A stretch of DNA of 64,000 bases, from NCBI GenBank assembly GCA_017559525.1, contig JAFYRI010000004.1, positions 11,233 through 75,232 of the forward strand, written 5' to 3'. Below, piece by piece: positions 611-3,790 of the stretch. A program made the translations under genes and the position numbers. The DNA is from Alphaproteobacteria bacterium. GTDB taxonomy: Bacteria > Pseudomonadota > Alphaproteobacteria > CAAHEQ01 > UBA3637. Each line of letters starts with the position of its first letter. The first letter of the stretch is position 1. Under the pieces are notes generated by a model. The model worked only from the letters and a program-made list of their open reading frames with translations, was not told where the DNA came from and did no database searches.

Positions 611-1570
611 ATGACAGAACAATTACAACGACCCGAGATGAAAACTCAAAGTGCTAAGATTACTGAAGAAGAGTGGTCTTATTTTTCATTAGGTATTGAT
701 ATACAAGAATTTATTTTACCCTCTGAACGAGGGGATTATAAAACTGATCCAAAAGCAGTAGCCTTGGTTGAGGCCATAAAAGCTGGTAAAGATTTATCTG
801 GCCAAGATTTCTCTGGCGTAAATTTAAAAGGTGCCGATATTTCTGGAGCTAAATTACAAGGTGCAAATTTATCTGGCGCTATCTTTTATAAAACAACGGC
901 TAATAAGTGTGATTTCCAAGGCGCTTGCTTTGATGGGGCCTATATGGAATATTTTGATGGTAGTGGCAGTAATTTTACTGGGGCAAGTTTTAAACACGTT
1001 TTTGTTAGAAATTTGAATTTAAATAAAGCACAAATTGATGAAAAAGAATTAGCCAAATTTTCAGCAATCGAACAATTAATACGATTAATTGAGACTGGTC
1101 AAATAGATATTAGATGTTTAACAAAACAAGACCTAATGCATTTGGATTTAAGACGTATTGACTTGAGTAAAGTTGATTTAGAAGGTATTGATTTGTCTGC
1201 ATTAATTTTAGAGGGTGTAAATTTGTGTGGTACATATATTGACCCTAAACAATTAATGAGTTTAAAAGGATTGCAACATTACCACAGGTCAGTTAAAAAA
1301 ATGAATGAAACAAAACTGAAAATGGAAACCTTGAAAGTGATACAGGCTAAATCCAAAGAATTAGATGCTTATGCTGCACGTGAAGCCAAAAATAAAAAAA
1401 TGGATGTTTCTGCAAAAAAATTAAAGCGTCCTAAGCCAAAAGGAAACAAAGATACTGAGACATTGATTCATATAATGAAACAAAAGCAACAAACGACAGA
1501 TATAACCTCTCAAAAAATTACAGGTCAAACACAAACAACTAAAAAAACAAATTTAAAAAACAGGAATTAA
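611..1570 (+). CDS. Pentapeptide-repeat protein with a lysine/threonine-rich C-terminal tail
   Basis: Repeated A(D/N)LSGxxLxGA pentapeptide units (DLSGQDFSGVNLKGADISGAKLQGANLSGAIF...). The C-terminal roughly 60 aa are highly basic. The stop lies 4 nt before the start of the downstream coupling-protein gene. Confidence 0.7.
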   Translation: MTEQLQRPEMKTQSAKITEEEWSYFSLGIDIQEFILPSERGDYKTDPKAVALVEAIKAGKDLSGQDFSGVNLKGADISGAKLQGANLSGAIFYKTTANKCDFQGACFDGAYMEYFDGSGSNFTGASFKHVFVRNLNLNKAQIDEKELAKFSAIEQLIRLIETGQIDIRCLTKQDLMHLDLRRIDLSKVDLEGIDLSALILEGVNLCGTYIDPKQLMSLKGLQHYHRSVKKMNETKLKMETLKVIQAKSKELDAYAAREAKNKKMDVSAKKLKRPKPKGNKDTETLIHIMKQKQQTTDITSQKITGQTQTTKKTNLKNRN

Positions 1571-1573
1571 CTG

Positions 1574-3790
1574 ATGCGATTTAAAATTTTCCGTTTTGCT
1601 CCAGAAAAAGTATCTAGACGTAATTGTCTTAAATGGTGGTGGTGGCGTGCCGCATTAGGAGTTATTGGCGTGTGGGGATTGTTGCTTATTTTAATCCCAG
1701 CAATGATTTATTTACTTAGCATAAATGATTTTCAAAGTGCTTGGAATACATCAATTATTTTTTGGAAGAAGACATTTACACAAAATATTTTGTTGCCATT
1801 TTCATCTTATTGGCAATGGGTGCTTGAATATATCACAAATGAGCCTAGACACAAAACTTGGGGTAGTTTTTTTGCATGGAAAGTTCCATTGATTCCAACT
1901 GGTTTGTTTATATGGTACCAATTGTGGTTACCAATTAAAAATCCATATTTTTGGGCTTATCAAACTTTTGGTGATGGAAGAGAAGCTAATAAAAAAGACC
2001 TAAAATCTTTTGGATTACTTGATGGAAAAGGCTTATTTTTAGGGTATTCTCAAGGCGTCAAAATGTTTTTACCGGATACGCGCTCGGTTTTTTGTATTGG
2101 TTGCCCAGGTTGTGGTAAAACAAGTGGCGTTATTATTCCTGCAATTTTTGAAAATAATCATTCATCTATGATAATTCATGATCCAAAAGGTGATATCGCT
2201 AAAGCTACTAGTGGATATCGAGCGACTTTAGGACCAGTATTTAAACTGAATTGGGGGGCTAGTGATGATTTAGAAAATGGCATTCGATGGCCTTCATGGA
2301 ATCCAATTGGTGGTAAAAATTTACCTCCACTTCAAAAAGGAAGAGAAGGATATATTGATACATTAATTTATTATTTAATCCCAGAAGGACCAACTGGAAC
2401 AGATCCGTATTGGGTAAAAGCAGGTAGAGGATGTCTAACTGGTTTAACTGGTTATTTATGTGGAAAAGTAGATCAGGCGCGTGCAAATGATTATTTCTTG
2501 TCTCGCTTAAAAAATGGTGAATTGGATGATGAAGATTATGCCGTTTTGTTATCCTATTATAAATCCATGCGTGATTTTCCAGAAGTTAAAGAGGCGATTG
2601 AAAATACACTAAATAAAAATATAACATTAGATAATTATTTGCCAATTGGTAAATGGGGTATCATTCCGAAAAATTGGCGAGGTCAAGATGCGAGCTTCGC
2701 TATGTTATTGGATATTCTAAATAATAATCAAATGCGTTATACTACAGAACTCAGACAACGCAAACAAGCTGGAGATGTGACCAGTATGGCAACAGATCCA
2801 TGGAAAATGATTTTAGAAGATATTGTTTTAGAAACAGCTTATTATGGATATGGTCGTAGAACATTATTAGAATTAGCTCAAGTTGAAGCATTACCAGATA
2901 AACAACGTGGTTCTGTTATTTCTATGGCATTATCTGGCATTAATATTTTTAAAAACTCTGCTGTACGAGCAAGAACATCTTTAAGTGATTTAGATTACTC
3001 TATGATGCGAGGCATAAAAGATAAAGAAACTGGAGAATATAAACCCGTTACAATTTATTTATCAGTTCCAATGGAAGATATTGGTTCATCAATGGCTGTC
3101 AGTACCTTATTTATCAATATGACTAGTGAAAATTTAATGGAAAATGGTCCAAATGAAGGAAGTGCAGGGCCATATCCAATGACTTTTATTTTGGATGAAT
3201 TTCAACATATGCCATCATTAAAAAGTATTGCTGATGGAATCGTATTTGGTCGTTCTAAATCTAATTCATTTTTGGTTTCTGTTCAAGATTGGCATCAAAT
3301 TAATTCCAAGTATGATCAAGAAACCACAGATATTATTATCAGTTCTGTTGCAGCAAAAATTATTAAACGACAAAACAATCCTGTAACACGCAATGTTTTA
3401 TTAAAAGGTATTGAAACATTAACTAAAGTCATACATAAATACAGTAGTGATAGATGCAAGATTGATTTTACGGGCTCCAGTTTAATAGGTACGAAAGAAA
3501 TGGGAGTTGGTTGGAGTGTTTGGGGTGGACATTCACATAAAATTGAAAGAAAAGCAGATAGTGTTATTGGTGGTTCTGGATTATTATCAATGGCTCCAAC
3601 AAAACAAATAGTGTTATATGCAGGACATCTACATCGACCTATTGTAGGACAAACGCCTTTATTTTATAAAAATGAAGAATATAAGGCAAAAGCGACTTTA
3701 AAAGCTGCGCCACCTATGCCAAAAGAGTTTATTAAACATAATGATAATTTAGCAGTTGTATCTCAATTACAATTTGATGATATTGAATAA
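1574..3790 (+). CDS. Type IV secretion coupling protein, VirD4/TraG family ATPase
   Basis: N-terminal TM region (WWWWRAALGVIGVWGLLLILIPAMIYLL); Walker A GCPGCGKTSGVIIP followed by IIHDPKGD; Walker B TFILDEFQHM and RSKSNSFLVSVQDW. Collinear with A. tumefaciens VirD4 motifs. Confidence 0.75.
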   Translation: MRFKIFRFAPEKVSRRNCLKWWWWRAALGVIGVWGLLLILIPAMIYLLSINDFQSAWNTSIIFWKKTFTQNILLPFSSYWQWVLEYITNEPRHKTWGSFFAWKVPLIPTGLFIWYQLWLPIKNPYFWAYQTFGDGREANKKDLKSFGLLDGKGLFLGYSQGVKMFLPDTRSVFCIGCPGCGKTSGVIIPAIFENNHSSMIIHDPKGDIAKATSGYRATLGPVFKLNWGASDDLENGIRWPSWNPIGGKNLPPLQKGREGYIDTLIYYLIPEGPTGTDPYWVKAGRGCLTGLTGYLCGKVDQARANDYFLSRLKNGELDDEDYAVLLSYYKSMRDFPEVKEAIENTLNKNITLDNYLPIGKWGIIPKNWRGQDASFAMLLDILNNNQMRYTTELRQRKQAGDVTSMATDPWKMILEDIVLETAYYGYGRRTLLELAQVEALPDKQRGSVISMALSGINIFKNSAVRARTSLSDLDYSMMRGIKDKETGEYKPVTIYLSVPMEDIGSSMAVSTLFINMTSENLMENGPNEGSAGPYPMTFILDEFQHMPSLKSIADGIVFGRSKSNSFLVSVQDWHQINSKYDQETTDIIISSVAAKIIKRQNNPVTRNVLLKGIETLTKVIHKYSSDRCKIDFTGSSLIGTKEMGVGWSVWGGHSHKIERKADSVIGGSGLLSMAPTKQIVLYAGHLHRPIVGQTPLFYKNEEYKAKATLKAAPPMPKEFIKHNDNLAVVSQLQFDDIE

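What the first reader, a model, noticed from the sequence alone, without database searches (positions are those of the whole stretch)
611..3790. Orphan VirD4/TraG-type coupling ATPase translationally coupled to a pentapeptide-repeat protein; no VirB components in the window
The 738-aa protein has intact Walker A (GCPGCGKT) and Walker B (ILDEF) motifs. Its region around FLGYSQGVKMFLPDTRSVFCIGCPGCGKTSGVIIPAIF..IIHDPKGD is collinear with the Agrobacterium VirD4 nucleotide-binding domain, so it is probably functional. It sits in a housekeeping neighbourhood between lspA and the addBA operon, which has apparently displaced trxA from its usual position next to addA. Its only partner is a pentapeptide-repeat protein with a very basic K/T-rich C-terminal tail whose stop is 4 nt from the T4CP start. 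Pentapeptide-repeat proteins (Qnr, MfpA type) can mimic DNA, and an extremely basic C-terminus is reminiscent of T4SS substrate signals, so the upstream gene could be a substrate, adaptor or regulator of the coupling protein. Together with the tail-motif family this may define a streamlined T4CP-dependent export system, or the T4CP may serve a T4SS encoded elsewhere.
Basis: partly seen in the sequence, partly recalled or inferred. Interest (0 to 1): 0.75.

Follow-up and report, generated by a model that had tools for sequence, protein, structure and literature searches.

The report
Pentapeptide-repeat partner of orphan T4CP
An uncultured gut alphaproteobacterium carries an intact secretion-system "coupling" ATPase that is always paired with a pentapeptide-repeat protein and never sits beside the rest of a secretion machine; this two-gene module is old, conserved and undescribed, and whether a secretion channel exists elsewhere in the genome remains open.

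Summary
ORF 611-1570 is a 319-aa pentapeptide-repeat protein (PRP). ORF 1574-3790 is an intact 738-aa VirD4/TraG/TrwB-family type IV coupling protein (T4CP). Its Shine-Dalgarno sequence lies inside the last PRP codons.

The T4CP has two predicted N-terminal TM helices, an invariant Walker A lysine and Walker B aspartate, and an enlarged all-alpha domain. Its model matches Cag-beta and TrwB.

New result: PRP-T4CP is a conserved module.
- A PRP lies directly upstream of the T4CP in all 36 related loci that include upstream DNA (carrier GC 34-59%).
- At least five different housekeeping neighbourhoods are involved.
- PRP-linked T4CPs are monophyletic (NJ bootstrap 100%).
- Both genes are under strong purifying selection (dN/dS 0.03-0.05).
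- No VirB gene lies within about 10 kb in any locus.

The nearest annotated relatives (26-34% identity) close virB2-virB11 operons on alphaproteobacterial plasmids.

Best reading: the PRP is a lineage-specific accessory subunit, or possibly a substrate, of a T4CP that serves a T4SS encoded elsewhere. I could not test that last point.

The link to the 25-aa tail family is not supported by distribution: the tail occurs in only 11 database clusters.

Verdict: new variant of a known kind, moderately interesting.

The parts
596..604 (+). Predicted extended -10 promoter element TGCTATAAT, ending 6 nt before the PRP ATG. No Shine-Dalgarno sequence follows, which suggests a leaderless mRNA.
   Evidence: Read directly from the sequence. 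TG(Y)TATAAT keeps the same 6-nt spacing to the ATG in orthologous loci L001, L003, L004, L021 and L023. L014 has TATAAT at that spacing. L002, L022 and L039 have it 7-8 nt before an alternative ATG. This is an inference; no transcript data exist. The generic sigma-70 scan did not list it because no -35 element is present.
611..1570 (+). Pentapeptide-repeat protein (PRP), 319 aa. From N to C: conserved R7-P8..K11 motif; acidic beta-helix block 1 (about residues 58-140); helical linker; highly conserved repeat block 2 (about residues 170-210: LxxLDxRxxDLxxxDLxxxDLSxxxLxGVNLxG); predicted coiled coil (218-262); basic low-complexity tail (263-319).
   Evidence: Pfam Pentapeptide 91.4 bits. The single-sequence AF2 model is confident only over residues 41-130, where it forms a beta-helix. 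Conservation map from 27 unique orthologues. Core pI 4.7-5.2, C-terminal part pI about 10 in 8 of 9 orthologues (L002: 5.8). dN/dS 0.04-0.05 overall; core 0.027, C-terminal part 0.13.
1397..1567 (+). Basic, poorly conserved C-terminal tail of the PRP (residues 263-319). The last 20 residues have a net charge of +5.
   Evidence: Net charge +5 to +10 in the last 20 residues of all 27 unique orthologues, despite 13-45% identity in this part.
1562..1565 (+). Shine-Dalgarno AGGA of the T4CP gene, embedded in the last PRP codons (AAC AGG AAT TAA), 8 nt before the ATG.
   Evidence: Sequence. An equivalent AGGA/GGAG sits inside the PRP 3' end in all nine junctions examined.
1574..3790 (+). Type IV coupling protein (VirD4/TraG/TrwB family), 738 aa.
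   Evidence: Pfam PF02534, PF10412 and PF12696. AF2 model pLDDT 82. Foldseek: Cag-beta 8dol E 1e-17, TrwB 1e9r/1e9s E 1e-11, DotL 6sz9 E 1e-6. Profile search of PDB sequences: Cag-beta E 2e-6. dN/dS 0.03-0.05.
1625..1939 (+). N-terminal membrane anchor of the T4CP: TM1 (about residues 18-48), periplasmic helical loop (49-95), TM2 (96-122).
   Evidence: Long hydrophobic helices H10-48 and H96-122 in the AF2 model. W102 and P108 are invariant; P42, Y79, W82, S98 and F99 are conserved in at least 90% of orthologues.
2099..2122 (+). Walker A motif GCPGCGKT (residues 176-183).
   Evidence: G181 and K182 invariant, T183 in 29 of 30 orthologues.
2324..2983 (+). Enlarged all-alpha domain (about residues 251-470) inserted in the nucleotide-binding domain. 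It is the most conserved part of the protein.
   Evidence: All-helical in the AF2 model, residues 257-469. Mean major-residue frequency 0.70, against 0.64-0.66 for the NBD halves. Pfam TrwB_AAD_bind.
3185..3199 (+). Walker B motif F-I-L-D-E (residues 538-542).
   Evidence: L540 and D541 invariant; residue 542 is E in 21 and D in 9 of 30 orthologues.

Best explanation
Genes 611-1570 and 1574-3790 form a two-gene operon. It is probably transcribed as a leaderless mRNA from an extended -10 element at 596-604, and the second gene is translationally coupled to the first.

The second gene encodes a membrane-anchored hexameric VirD4-family ATPase (T4CP). The first encodes a cytoplasmic pentapeptide-repeat protein with an acidic beta-helix core and a basic disordered tail.

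I propose that the PRP is a dedicated, lineage-specific accessory subunit of the T4CP. It would act as an adaptor or an activity gate and would bind the enlarged, unusually conserved all-alpha domain. This is functionally analogous to CagZ on Cag-beta, or to DotM/DotN/IcmSW on DotL.

I further propose that the complex is the substrate receptor of a VirB-type T4SS whose channel genes lie elsewhere on the chromosome, scattered as in the Rickettsiales rvh system.

Shown: gene structure, family membership, catalytic-motif conservation, obligate synteny, monophyly and purifying selection.

Inferred: physical PRP-T4CP binding, the all-alpha domain as the interface, the existence of a distant T4SS, and the leaderless transcript.
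For: T4CP identity and integrity.

Coupling geometry (SD inside the PRP 3' end, 0-4 nt gap or overlap) is conserved in all nine junctions examined.

A PRP-HMM hit lies immediately upstream of the T4CP in all 34 loci that hold upstream DNA, plus L042 and L043. The six loci without a hit all start inside or at the edge of the T4CP gene.

Flanks differ between lineages, so the linkage is functional rather than inherited neighbourhood:
- lspA ... hydrolase-addAB
- lspA ... other genes
- lpxC ... recR
- by reading N-terminal ORF sequences only (no profile run): obg ... plsX, and uvrA ... an unidentified ORF
- pepN / secreted unknown protein ... flavodiiron protein
- FTHFS ...

PRP-linked T4CPs are monophyletic with 100% NJ bootstrap.

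PRP core identity tracks T4CP identity: 63/65, 50/61, 54/60, 41/44, 32/37-39%.

dN/dS is 0.03-0.05 for both genes.

The all-alpha domain is the most conserved region of the T4CP. In Cag-beta this domain binds the lineage-specific regulator CagZ (PMC9886983), and Cag-beta is the top structural match.

The nearest annotated relatives are terminal genes of virB2..virB8-9-10-11 operons. The protein therefore descends from a true T4SS coupling protein. It keeps a TM anchor with invariant residues, which suggests membrane or periplasmic partners.
Against: No VirB, Trb or Dot gene was found within about 10 kb of the T4CP in any of some 45 loci (about 0.8 Mb in total), nor in the 64-kb window. The T4SS is therefore assumed, not observed.

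No interaction evidence exists. I could not run a multimer model, and the single-sequence PRP model was poor.

No described T4CP accessory protein is a PRP; three literature searches found none.

The basic C-terminus would equally fit a translocation signal, which would make the PRP a substrate.

The NJ tree is simple (Kimura distances, 24 sequences).
Confidence: 0.45

Rival explanations
1. The PRP is itself the dedicated translocated substrate (effector) of the T4CP. The acidic beta-helix would be the functional module, acting either as a DNA mimic of the Qnr/MfpA kind or as a host-protein binder like the Salmonella PRP effectors PipB and PipB2. The basic C-terminal tail would be the T4SS translocation signal, as in Agrobacterium VirE2, VirE3 and VirF. 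This still requires a T4SS elsewhere.
For: The last 20 residues carry a net charge of +5 to +10 in all 27 unique orthologues, while the sequence of this part is poorly conserved. That pattern is typical of charge-based signals. The core is acidic, pI 4.7-5.2. The best NCBIfam partial matches include the T3SS effectors PipB and PipB2 (E 4e-10 and 3e-9), well below their cutoffs.
Against: Effectors are rarely fixed in translationally coupled synteny with their coupling protein over such deep divergence. Coupling implies matched stoichiometry, as for complex subunits. The PRP core evolves as slowly as the T4CP (dN/dS 0.027), which is unlike fast-evolving effectors. The final residues are partly dictated by the embedded SD. 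Scores against the Qnr, MfpA and PipB models are far below cutoff.
Confidence: 0.2
2. The pair is a T4SS-independent machine. The T4CP would have been exapted, together with the PRP, for an inner-membrane function that needs no VirB channel. Examples would be ATP-driven translocation or extraction of DNA or protein at the cytoplasmic membrane, with the DNA-mimicking PRP gating the DNA-binding channel.
For: Orphan status is ancient and stable. The whole clade, meaning the PRP-linked T4CPs plus the sister PRP-less chromosomal T4CPs (L044-L047), lacks VirB neighbours. The outgroup T4CPs sit in VirB operons. All contexts are housekeeping. The all-alpha domain is enlarged and the family is very divergent: no PDB hit by single-sequence search and no NCBIfam equivalog reached.
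Against: No precedent is known to me for a VirD4-family T4CP working without a T4SS in a diderm. The scattered T4SS genes of Rickettsiales show that absence of nearby VirB genes is not evidence of absence. Genome-wide content could not be examined. Conserved residues in the TM anchor and periplasmic loop suggest envelope partners.
Confidence: 0.15
3. The pair is a decaying remnant of an integrated conjugative element, or a mobile anti-phage defence cassette.
For: T4CPs usually belong to mobile elements. HerA/FtsK-type ATPases occur in defence systems, and HerA-Sir2 complexes appear as distant fold matches.
Against: Both ORFs are intact with dN/dS of 0.03-0.05. No integrase, relaxase, tRNA-flank or repeat signature was seen: tRNAs lie only at 19.5, 31.8 and 52.2 kb. 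GC content matches the flanking DNA. The pair is single-copy in core-gene contexts, and the T4CP tree is resolved into clades that match those contexts. PADLOC gave no hit for either protein.
Confidence: 0.04

Closest known systems
VirD4-type T4CPs at the end of virB operons on alphaproteobacterial plasmids (Erythrobacter aureus YH-07 plasmid NZ_CP031358, WP_115418087.1; Microvirga sp. VF16 pMVF16-3, WP_203447103.1)
   Same: Same family and domain order: TM anchor, NBD and all-alpha domain. These are the best annotated sequence matches, at 26-30% identity to the window protein and up to 34% to sister-clade members.
   Different: The plasmid T4CPs directly follow virB8-virB9-virB10-virB11 and have no PRP neighbour. 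The window protein is chromosomal, has no VirB neighbour and is always preceded by a PRP.
Helicobacter pylori Cag-beta (Cag5) with its regulator CagZ (PDB 8dol; PMC9886983)
   Same: Cag-beta is the top structural match (Foldseek E 1e-17) and the only significant PDB profile hit. It is a T4CP with a small, lineage-specific cytoplasmic partner. That partner binds the all-alpha domain and controls hexamerisation and ATPase activity (PMC9886983).
   Different: [quoted passage not shown] I did not test sequence similarity between the two. Cag-beta lies inside the cag island with the full T4SS (PMC10896142).
Legionella Dot/Icm type IV coupling complex (DotL-DotM-DotN-IcmS/W-LvgA; PDB 6sz9)
   Same: A T4CP that works as a multi-subunit receptor with dedicated adaptor proteins. 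DotL is a fold match (E 1e-6).
   Different: From my own knowledge, DotL uses a long C-terminal extension to bind its adaptors. The window T4CP ends shortly after the NBD. Only the basal PRP-linked relatives L042 and L043 carry a roughly 300-aa acidic extension. No DotM, DotN or IcmSW homologues were seen.
Rickettsiales vir homolog (rvh) T4SS with RvhD4
   Same: A vertically inherited, chromosomal alphaproteobacterial T4SS. From my own knowledge, its genes are split over several loci. PMC11077975 describes rvh and RvhD4-interacting effector candidates, including the PRP-containing cREM-4.
   Different: The window protein is not an RvhD4 orthologue: NCBIfam PRK13897 scores 69 bits against a cutoff of 728. 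From my own knowledge, rvhD4 sits next to rvhB8-B11, whereas this T4CP is alone.
DNA-mimic pentapeptide-repeat proteins (Qnr, MfpA) and PRP-containing T3SS effectors (PipB, PipB2)
   Same: Tandem pentapeptide repeats and an acidic beta-helix core.
   Different: All specific family models score far below cutoff: Qnr 33 of 240, MfpA 26 of 360, PipB 39 of 274, PipB2 36 of 354. Those proteins lack the extra features seen here: the conserved RP..K N-terminal motif, the split repeat blocks, the coiled coil and the basic tail. None is known to pair with a T4CP.

Membership tests
Type IV coupling protein (VirD4/TraG/TrwB; Pfam PF02534) | Reaches the curated family profile threshold | tested here: met
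   T4SS-DNA_transf 112.8 bits against cutoff 20.1. TrwB_AAD_bind 38.5 against 20.5. TraG-D_C 38.8 against 22.
Type IV coupling protein (VirD4/TraG/TrwB; Pfam PF02534) | RecA-like NBD with Walker A lysine and Walker B aspartate | tested here: met
   GCPGCGKT at 176-183 and FILDE at 538-542. K182 and D541 are invariant in 30 orthologues.
Type IV coupling protein (VirD4/TraG/TrwB; Pfam PF02534) | N-terminal transmembrane anchor (two TM helices flanking a periplasmic loop) | tested here: met
   Predicted only: hydrophobic helices 10-48 and 96-122 in the AF2 model. Topology was not tested experimentally.
Type IV coupling protein (VirD4/TraG/TrwB; Pfam PF02534) | All-alpha domain inserted in the NBD; overall fold like TrwB | tested here: met
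   Helical domain at about residues 251-470. Foldseek: Cag-beta E 1e-17 (TM-score on target 0.66-0.69) and TrwB E 1e-11 (0.61-0.71).
Type IV coupling protein (VirD4/TraG/TrwB; Pfam PF02534) | Genetic association with a T4SS channel (VirB4 and others) and/or a relaxase | tested here: not met
   None in the 64-kb window or within about 10 kb in some 45 related loci. Genome-wide presence cannot be tested with these tools, so this is a local result only.
Type IV coupling protein (VirD4/TraG/TrwB; Pfam PF02534) | Hexameric ATPase activity and substrate recruitment | not testable with these tools
   Needs biochemistry.
Agrobacterium-type VirD4 / Rickettsia-type VirD4 / IncP TraG equivalogs (NCBIfam PRK13850, PRK13897, PRK13876) | Score at or above the curated equivalog or subfamily cutoff | tested here: not met
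   31.5 against 681, 69.2 against 728, and 64.7 against 674. The protein is not an orthologue of any named T4CP subfamily.
Pentapeptide-repeat protein (Pfam PF00805) | Tandem A(D/N)LXX repeats above the family threshold that form a right-handed beta-helix | tested here: met
   91.4 bits against 20.2, five matched stretches. The AF2 single-sequence model shows regular short strands with pLDDT 76-87 over residues 41-100 and 67-72 over 101-120. PDB sequence matches are PRP structures.
Qnr / MfpA topoisomerase-protecting DNA mimics | Reaches the equivalog cutoff; about 180-220 aa, dimeric, no extra domains | tested here: not met
   Qnr 33 against 240, MfpA 26.2 against 360. The architecture differs: N-terminal motif, two repeat blocks, coiled coil and basic tail. 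Acidic surface charge is shared, so a DNA-mimic mode is not excluded.
PipB / PipB2 T3SS effectors | Reaches the equivalog cutoff | tested here: not met
   39.2 against 274 and 36.2 against 354.
Known anti-phage defence systems (PADLOC-DB 2.0) | Any component model matched | tested here: not met
   No hit at E of 0.01 or better for the PRP, the T4CP or the downstream ORF.

The most novel reading that the evidence does not exclude
The genomes that carry this module have no VirB/Trb/Dot channel at all. In that case a VirD4-family coupling ATPase and its pentapeptide-repeat (DNA-mimic-like) partner form a self-contained inner-membrane machine, conserved across an order-level radiation of uncultured, largely gut-associated Alphaproteobacteria. 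This would be the first T4SS-independent role for a T4CP in a diderm.
Probability: 0.15. Interest if true: 0.85.

Novelty: new variant of a known kind. Interest (0 to 1): 0.6.

Why it matters
T4CPs decide what a type IV secretion system exports. Their accessory subunits (CagZ, DotM/N, IcmSW) are lineage-specific and are central to substrate choice and gating.

A pentapeptide-repeat protein as an obligate, co-translated T4CP partner has not been described. It would add a new structural class, a beta-helix that may mimic DNA, to the list of T4CP regulators or adaptors.

The carriers are abundant but uncultured Alphaproteobacteria from animal and human guts, whose host-interaction machinery is essentially unknown.

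The module also gives a clean marker for asking whether these bacteria run a scattered, vertically inherited T4SS, or whether a coupling protein can be exapted away from secretion.

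Tried and rejected
**Single-sequence searches.** A phmmer search of the PDB with the T4CP found nothing. 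Only a family profile reached Cag-beta.

**PRP structure.** The single-sequence AF2 model was poor (pLDDT 47). It used one of only two structure jobs, so I could not make an alignment-based PRP model or test for a complex.

**Unavailable library.** The afdb50 fold library was not on the machine.

**Tail motif.** The 49-aa version found only 11 clusters. I therefore rejected the tail family as a clade-wide partner of the T4CP.

**Hunt for a T4SS.**
- tblastn with VirB2-B11 from two plasmid operons against every fetched locus gave nothing.
- Lenient Pfam scans of unknown ORFs next to sister-clade T4CPs found no T4SS family.
- The last contig look-up, on a tail-protein homologue, returned only a region syntenic with window 18-26 kb.
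- Whole-genome inspection was impossible.

**Literature.** Searches for a PRP-T4CP link, for orphan VirD4 in gut Alphaproteobacteria and for RF32 secretion systems found nothing relevant.

**Electrostatics.** I tested whether the T4CP C-terminus is acidic and so complements the basic PRP tail. The result is only a trend: 14 of 18 PRP-linked T4CPs are net negative over the last 40 residues, L024 is neutral, and L014 and L039 are positive. I did not use this as evidence.

**Generic scans.** The promoter and terminator scan found no more sites than shuffled sequence.

**Rejected readings.** An ICE remnant or pseudogene reading was rejected (dN/dS). A defence-system reading was rejected (PADLOC).

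Full report
**What is in the sequence**

The window has about 33% GC. Region 611-3790 holds two same-strand ORFs.

ORF 611-1570 (319 aa) is a pentapeptide-repeat protein (PRP). It scores 91.4 bits against Pfam Pentapeptide, cutoff 20.2.

ORF 1574-3790 (738 aa) reaches three T4CP-related Pfam families: T4SS-DNA_transf (112.8 bits, cutoff 20.1), TrwB_AAD_bind and TraG-D_C.

The PRP stop (TAA, 1568-1570) lies 3 nt before the T4CP ATG (1574). The T4CP's Shine-Dalgarno AGGA (1562-1565) is inside the last PRP codons.

Upstream on the opposite strand is lspA. Downstream on the opposite strand are three genes:
- a 255-aa lipoprotein-like ORF with weak alpha/beta-hydrolase hits
- addA (UvrD helicase plus PD-(D/E)XK nuclease)
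- addB (PD-(D/E)XK only)

trxA sits at 17729-18097. The rest of the window reads as housekeeping.

No VirB-type gene is present. I tested this by tblastn with 22 proteins from two plasmid VirB operons. Apart from the T4CP queries themselves, nothing scored better than E 0.03.

**Is the T4CP real and intact?**

A model built from an alignment of 30 orthologues has mean pLDDT 82. It shows:
- two long hydrophobic N-terminal helices (10-48 and 96-122) flanking a helical loop
- a RecA-like nucleotide-binding domain
- a large all-helical insertion at about residues 251-470

Foldseek places the model with H. pylori Cag-beta (E 1e-17), TrwB (E 1e-11) and DotL (E 1e-6). HerA-type ATPases follow.

The Walker A lysine K182 and Walker B aspartate D541 are invariant in the 30 orthologues. 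The next Walker B residue is E or D.

Against the two closest relatives available, dN/dS is 0.03-0.05. dS is saturated, so the ratio is approximate, but it is far below 1.

By sequence the protein is an outlier.
- A single-sequence search of the PDB finds nothing.
- A family profile reaches only Cag-beta, E 2e-6.
- Every named NCBIfam T4CP model is missed by a wide margin: Agrobacterium-type VirD4 31.5 of 681, Rickettsia-type 69 of 728, IncP TraG 65 of 674.

It is a member of the T4CP superfamily, but not of any named subfamily.

**The pair is a conserved module**

All homologues come from uncultured MAGs, and every source name given is Alphaproteobacteria. Identifiable sources include roe-deer caecum, sheep rumen and rectum, and human gut.

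I examined 36 related loci that include DNA upstream of the T4CP. In all of them, a protein matching a profile of this particular PRP lies immediately upstream. There are 29 distinct PRP sequences, on contigs of 34-59% GC. The stop-start gap is 0-4 nt, or the genes overlap, and an SD sits inside the PRP 3' end. The six loci with no PRP hit all begin inside or at the edge of the T4CP gene.

The flanking genes differ between lineages:

| Upstream flank | Downstream flank |
|---|---|
| lspA | hydrolase-addAB |
| lspA | other genes |
| lpxC | recR-ybaB |
| obg (by reading only) | plsX (by reading only) |
| uvrA (by reading only) | unidentified ORF |
| pepN plus a secreted unknown protein | flavodiiron protein |
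| FTHFS | varies |

A neighbour-joining tree gives three results:
- The PRP-linked T4CPs form one clade, with 100% bootstrap.
- The sister group is chromosomal orphan T4CPs without a PRP (L044-L047).
- The outgroup is T4CPs that close virB2...virB8-9-10-11 operons on Erythrobacter and Microvirga plasmids.

The sequence of events is therefore as follows. A VirB-operon T4CP became separated from its operon. It then acquired the PRP partner once. The two genes have stayed together through repeated genomic rearrangement. Such persistent linkage despite context turnover is strong evidence of a functional, probably physical, link.

**Anatomy of the PRP**

Across 27 unique orthologues, the conserved elements are:
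- an N-terminal R-P-x-x-K motif
- a first repeat block
- a helical linker
- a second, very conserved repeat block (LxxLDxRxxDLxxxDLxxxDLSxxxLxGVNLxG)
- one invariant arginine in the otherwise variable C-terminal half

The core is acidic (pI 4.7-5.2). The C-terminal part is basic in 8 of 9 orthologues and of very variable length, 104-348 aa. The last 20 residues carry a net charge of +5 to +10 in every orthologue. The very last residues (NRN*, QRS*, NRT*) are partly dictated by the embedded AGGA.

The core evolves as slowly as the T4CP (dN/dS 0.027). The tail evolves faster (0.13). PRP core identity tracks T4CP identity across clades.

Within the T4CP, the all-alpha domain is the most conserved region.

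**How it most likely works**

I favour the PRP as a dedicated accessory subunit, either adaptor or gate. It would bind the T4CP's enlarged all-alpha domain. The complex would be the receptor of a T4SS encoded elsewhere (confidence 0.45).

The precedent is Cag-beta and CagZ. A lineage-specific cytoplasmic protein clasps the all-alpha domain and holds the ATPase monomeric (PMC9886983). Cag-beta is also the best structural match here.

The rivals are:
- The PRP is the translocated substrate, with its basic tail as the signal (0.20).
- The pair is a T4SS-independent inner-membrane machine (0.15).
- The pair is a mobile-element remnant or a defence cassette (0.04). This is disfavoured by intact ORFs, dN/dS, core-gene contexts and the absence of PADLOC hits.

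What is shown: structure, family membership, synteny, monophyly and selection. What is inferred: binding, the interface, and the existence of a T4SS.

**The main gap**

I could not inspect whole genomes. No VirB, Trb or Dot gene lies within about 10 kb of the T4CP in any locus, about 0.8 Mb in total. Lenient Pfam scans of unknown neighbours also found none. From my own knowledge, T4SS genes can be scattered, as in Rickettsiales, so this does not show absence.

**The tail-motif family**

Four window ORFs end in a nearly identical 24-aa tail. Conservation is at the protein level. Synonymous differences are present, and similarity stops at the stop codon.

The motif occurs in only 11 clusters of a 5.8-billion-protein database. 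The one looked up lies in a variable islet syntenic with window 18-26 kb. The PRP-T4CP module is far more widespread. The proposed functional union of the two is therefore unsupported, although lineage-specific secretion signals cannot be excluded.

**Promoter**

A perfect extended -10 element (TGCTATAAT, 596-604) ends 6 nt before the PRP ATG, with no SD in between. The element and its spacing recur in orthologous loci. This suggests a leaderless transcript, but it remains an inference.

**Novelty and score**

Three literature searches found no PRP-T4CP association. I rate the finding a new variant of a known kind: a T4CP with a new class of obligate partner, in an unusual and stably orphan chromosomal setting.

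Interest is 0.6. It would rise sharply if the carriers prove to lack a T4SS.

Noticed in passing
window 18440-18892(+), 18907-19416(+), 33571-34389(-), 34811-35344(-): Four otherwise unrelated small proteins end in a near-identical 24-aa tail, P(Q/E)IQKITDQKKxPxQDTSRGAR(T/S)E*. One of them has a marginal ankyrin hit. Three have a hydrophobic helix just before the tail. Conservation is at the protein level: synonymous changes are present, and DNA similarity ends at the stop codon. The motif occurs in only 11 clusters of the 5.8-billion-protein database.
   Followed up: partly
window 32120-32620(+) and 32650-33177(+): A tandem pair of paralogous ORFs (166 and 175 aa). Both have an N-terminal hydrophobic segment and share a C-terminal domain (...DNNPxTxEYxGKVENxPQNxAKxQNAGxxVGKxMxLxQWxQxVxxLERV*). 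Neither has a Pfam hit.
   Followed up: partly
window 596-604 and orthologous loci L001, L003, L004, L014, L021, L023: An extended -10 element TG(Y)TATAAT (L014: TATAAT only) sits exactly 6 nt upstream of the PRP start codon, with no Shine-Dalgarno sequence. This suggests a conserved leaderless mRNA for the operon.
   Followed up: partly
L007 7533-8588; L011 7511-8647; L016 7550-8635; L017 7516-8628; L033 7115-8272; L036 5744-6832: In the pepN-context clade, a signal-peptide-bearing protein of 350-385 aa with no Pfam hit lies 3-24 nt upstream of the PRP. Together they look like a three-gene operon: secreted protein, PRP, T4CP. No homologue exists in the window.
   Followed up: partly
L042 10001-13042; L043 10001-13006: Basal PRP-linked T4CPs are 1001-1013 aa long. 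They carry a roughly 300-aa extremely acidic C-terminal extension, with a net charge of -13 to -21 over the last 40 residues. This is reminiscent of the TraD and DotL C-terminal adaptor-binding tails.
   Followed up: no
L044 520-9912: In a PRP-less sister lineage (31.5% GC, on a 1.05-Mb contig), the T4CP is preceded by a 3130-aa G/N/S/D/T-rich repetitive protein that resembles an autotransporter or adhesin.
   Followed up: no
L019 (Erythrobacter aureus plasmid NZ_CP031358) and L020 (Microvirga pMVF16-3): The closest annotated T4CP relatives lie in virB operons typed as 'non-mobilizable'. Both are flanked by Rad52/Rad22 genes and by helicases (DnaB-like on L019, ATP-dependent on L020); the Erythrobacter plasmid additionally carries topoisomerase III, a primase-like protein and SSB. 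This is an unusual accessory set for a conjugation locus.
   Followed up: no
L002 (CAYPVK010000003.1): The record is titled 'uncultured Lactobacillales bacterium'. It nevertheless carries the lspA / PRP-T4CP / hydrolase / addA-addB arrangement syntenic with this alphaproteobacterial window, with a T4CP 65% identical. The bin is probably mislabelled.
   Followed up: no
window 3795-4562(-): A 255-aa lipoprotein-like ORF with weak alpha/beta-hydrolase matches. It converges on the T4CP stop with a 4-nt gap and overlaps the addA start by 37 nt. It is conserved in L002 but not in other clades.
   Followed up: partly
L048 3940-9831: In a relative, the islet holding a tail-motif protein also carries a 1377-aa autotransporter and a 445-aa ankyrin-repeat protein, just upstream of the conserved SLT_2-rlpA-dacC-tmk-holB block. 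This is a variable island of candidate host-interaction genes.
   Followed up: no
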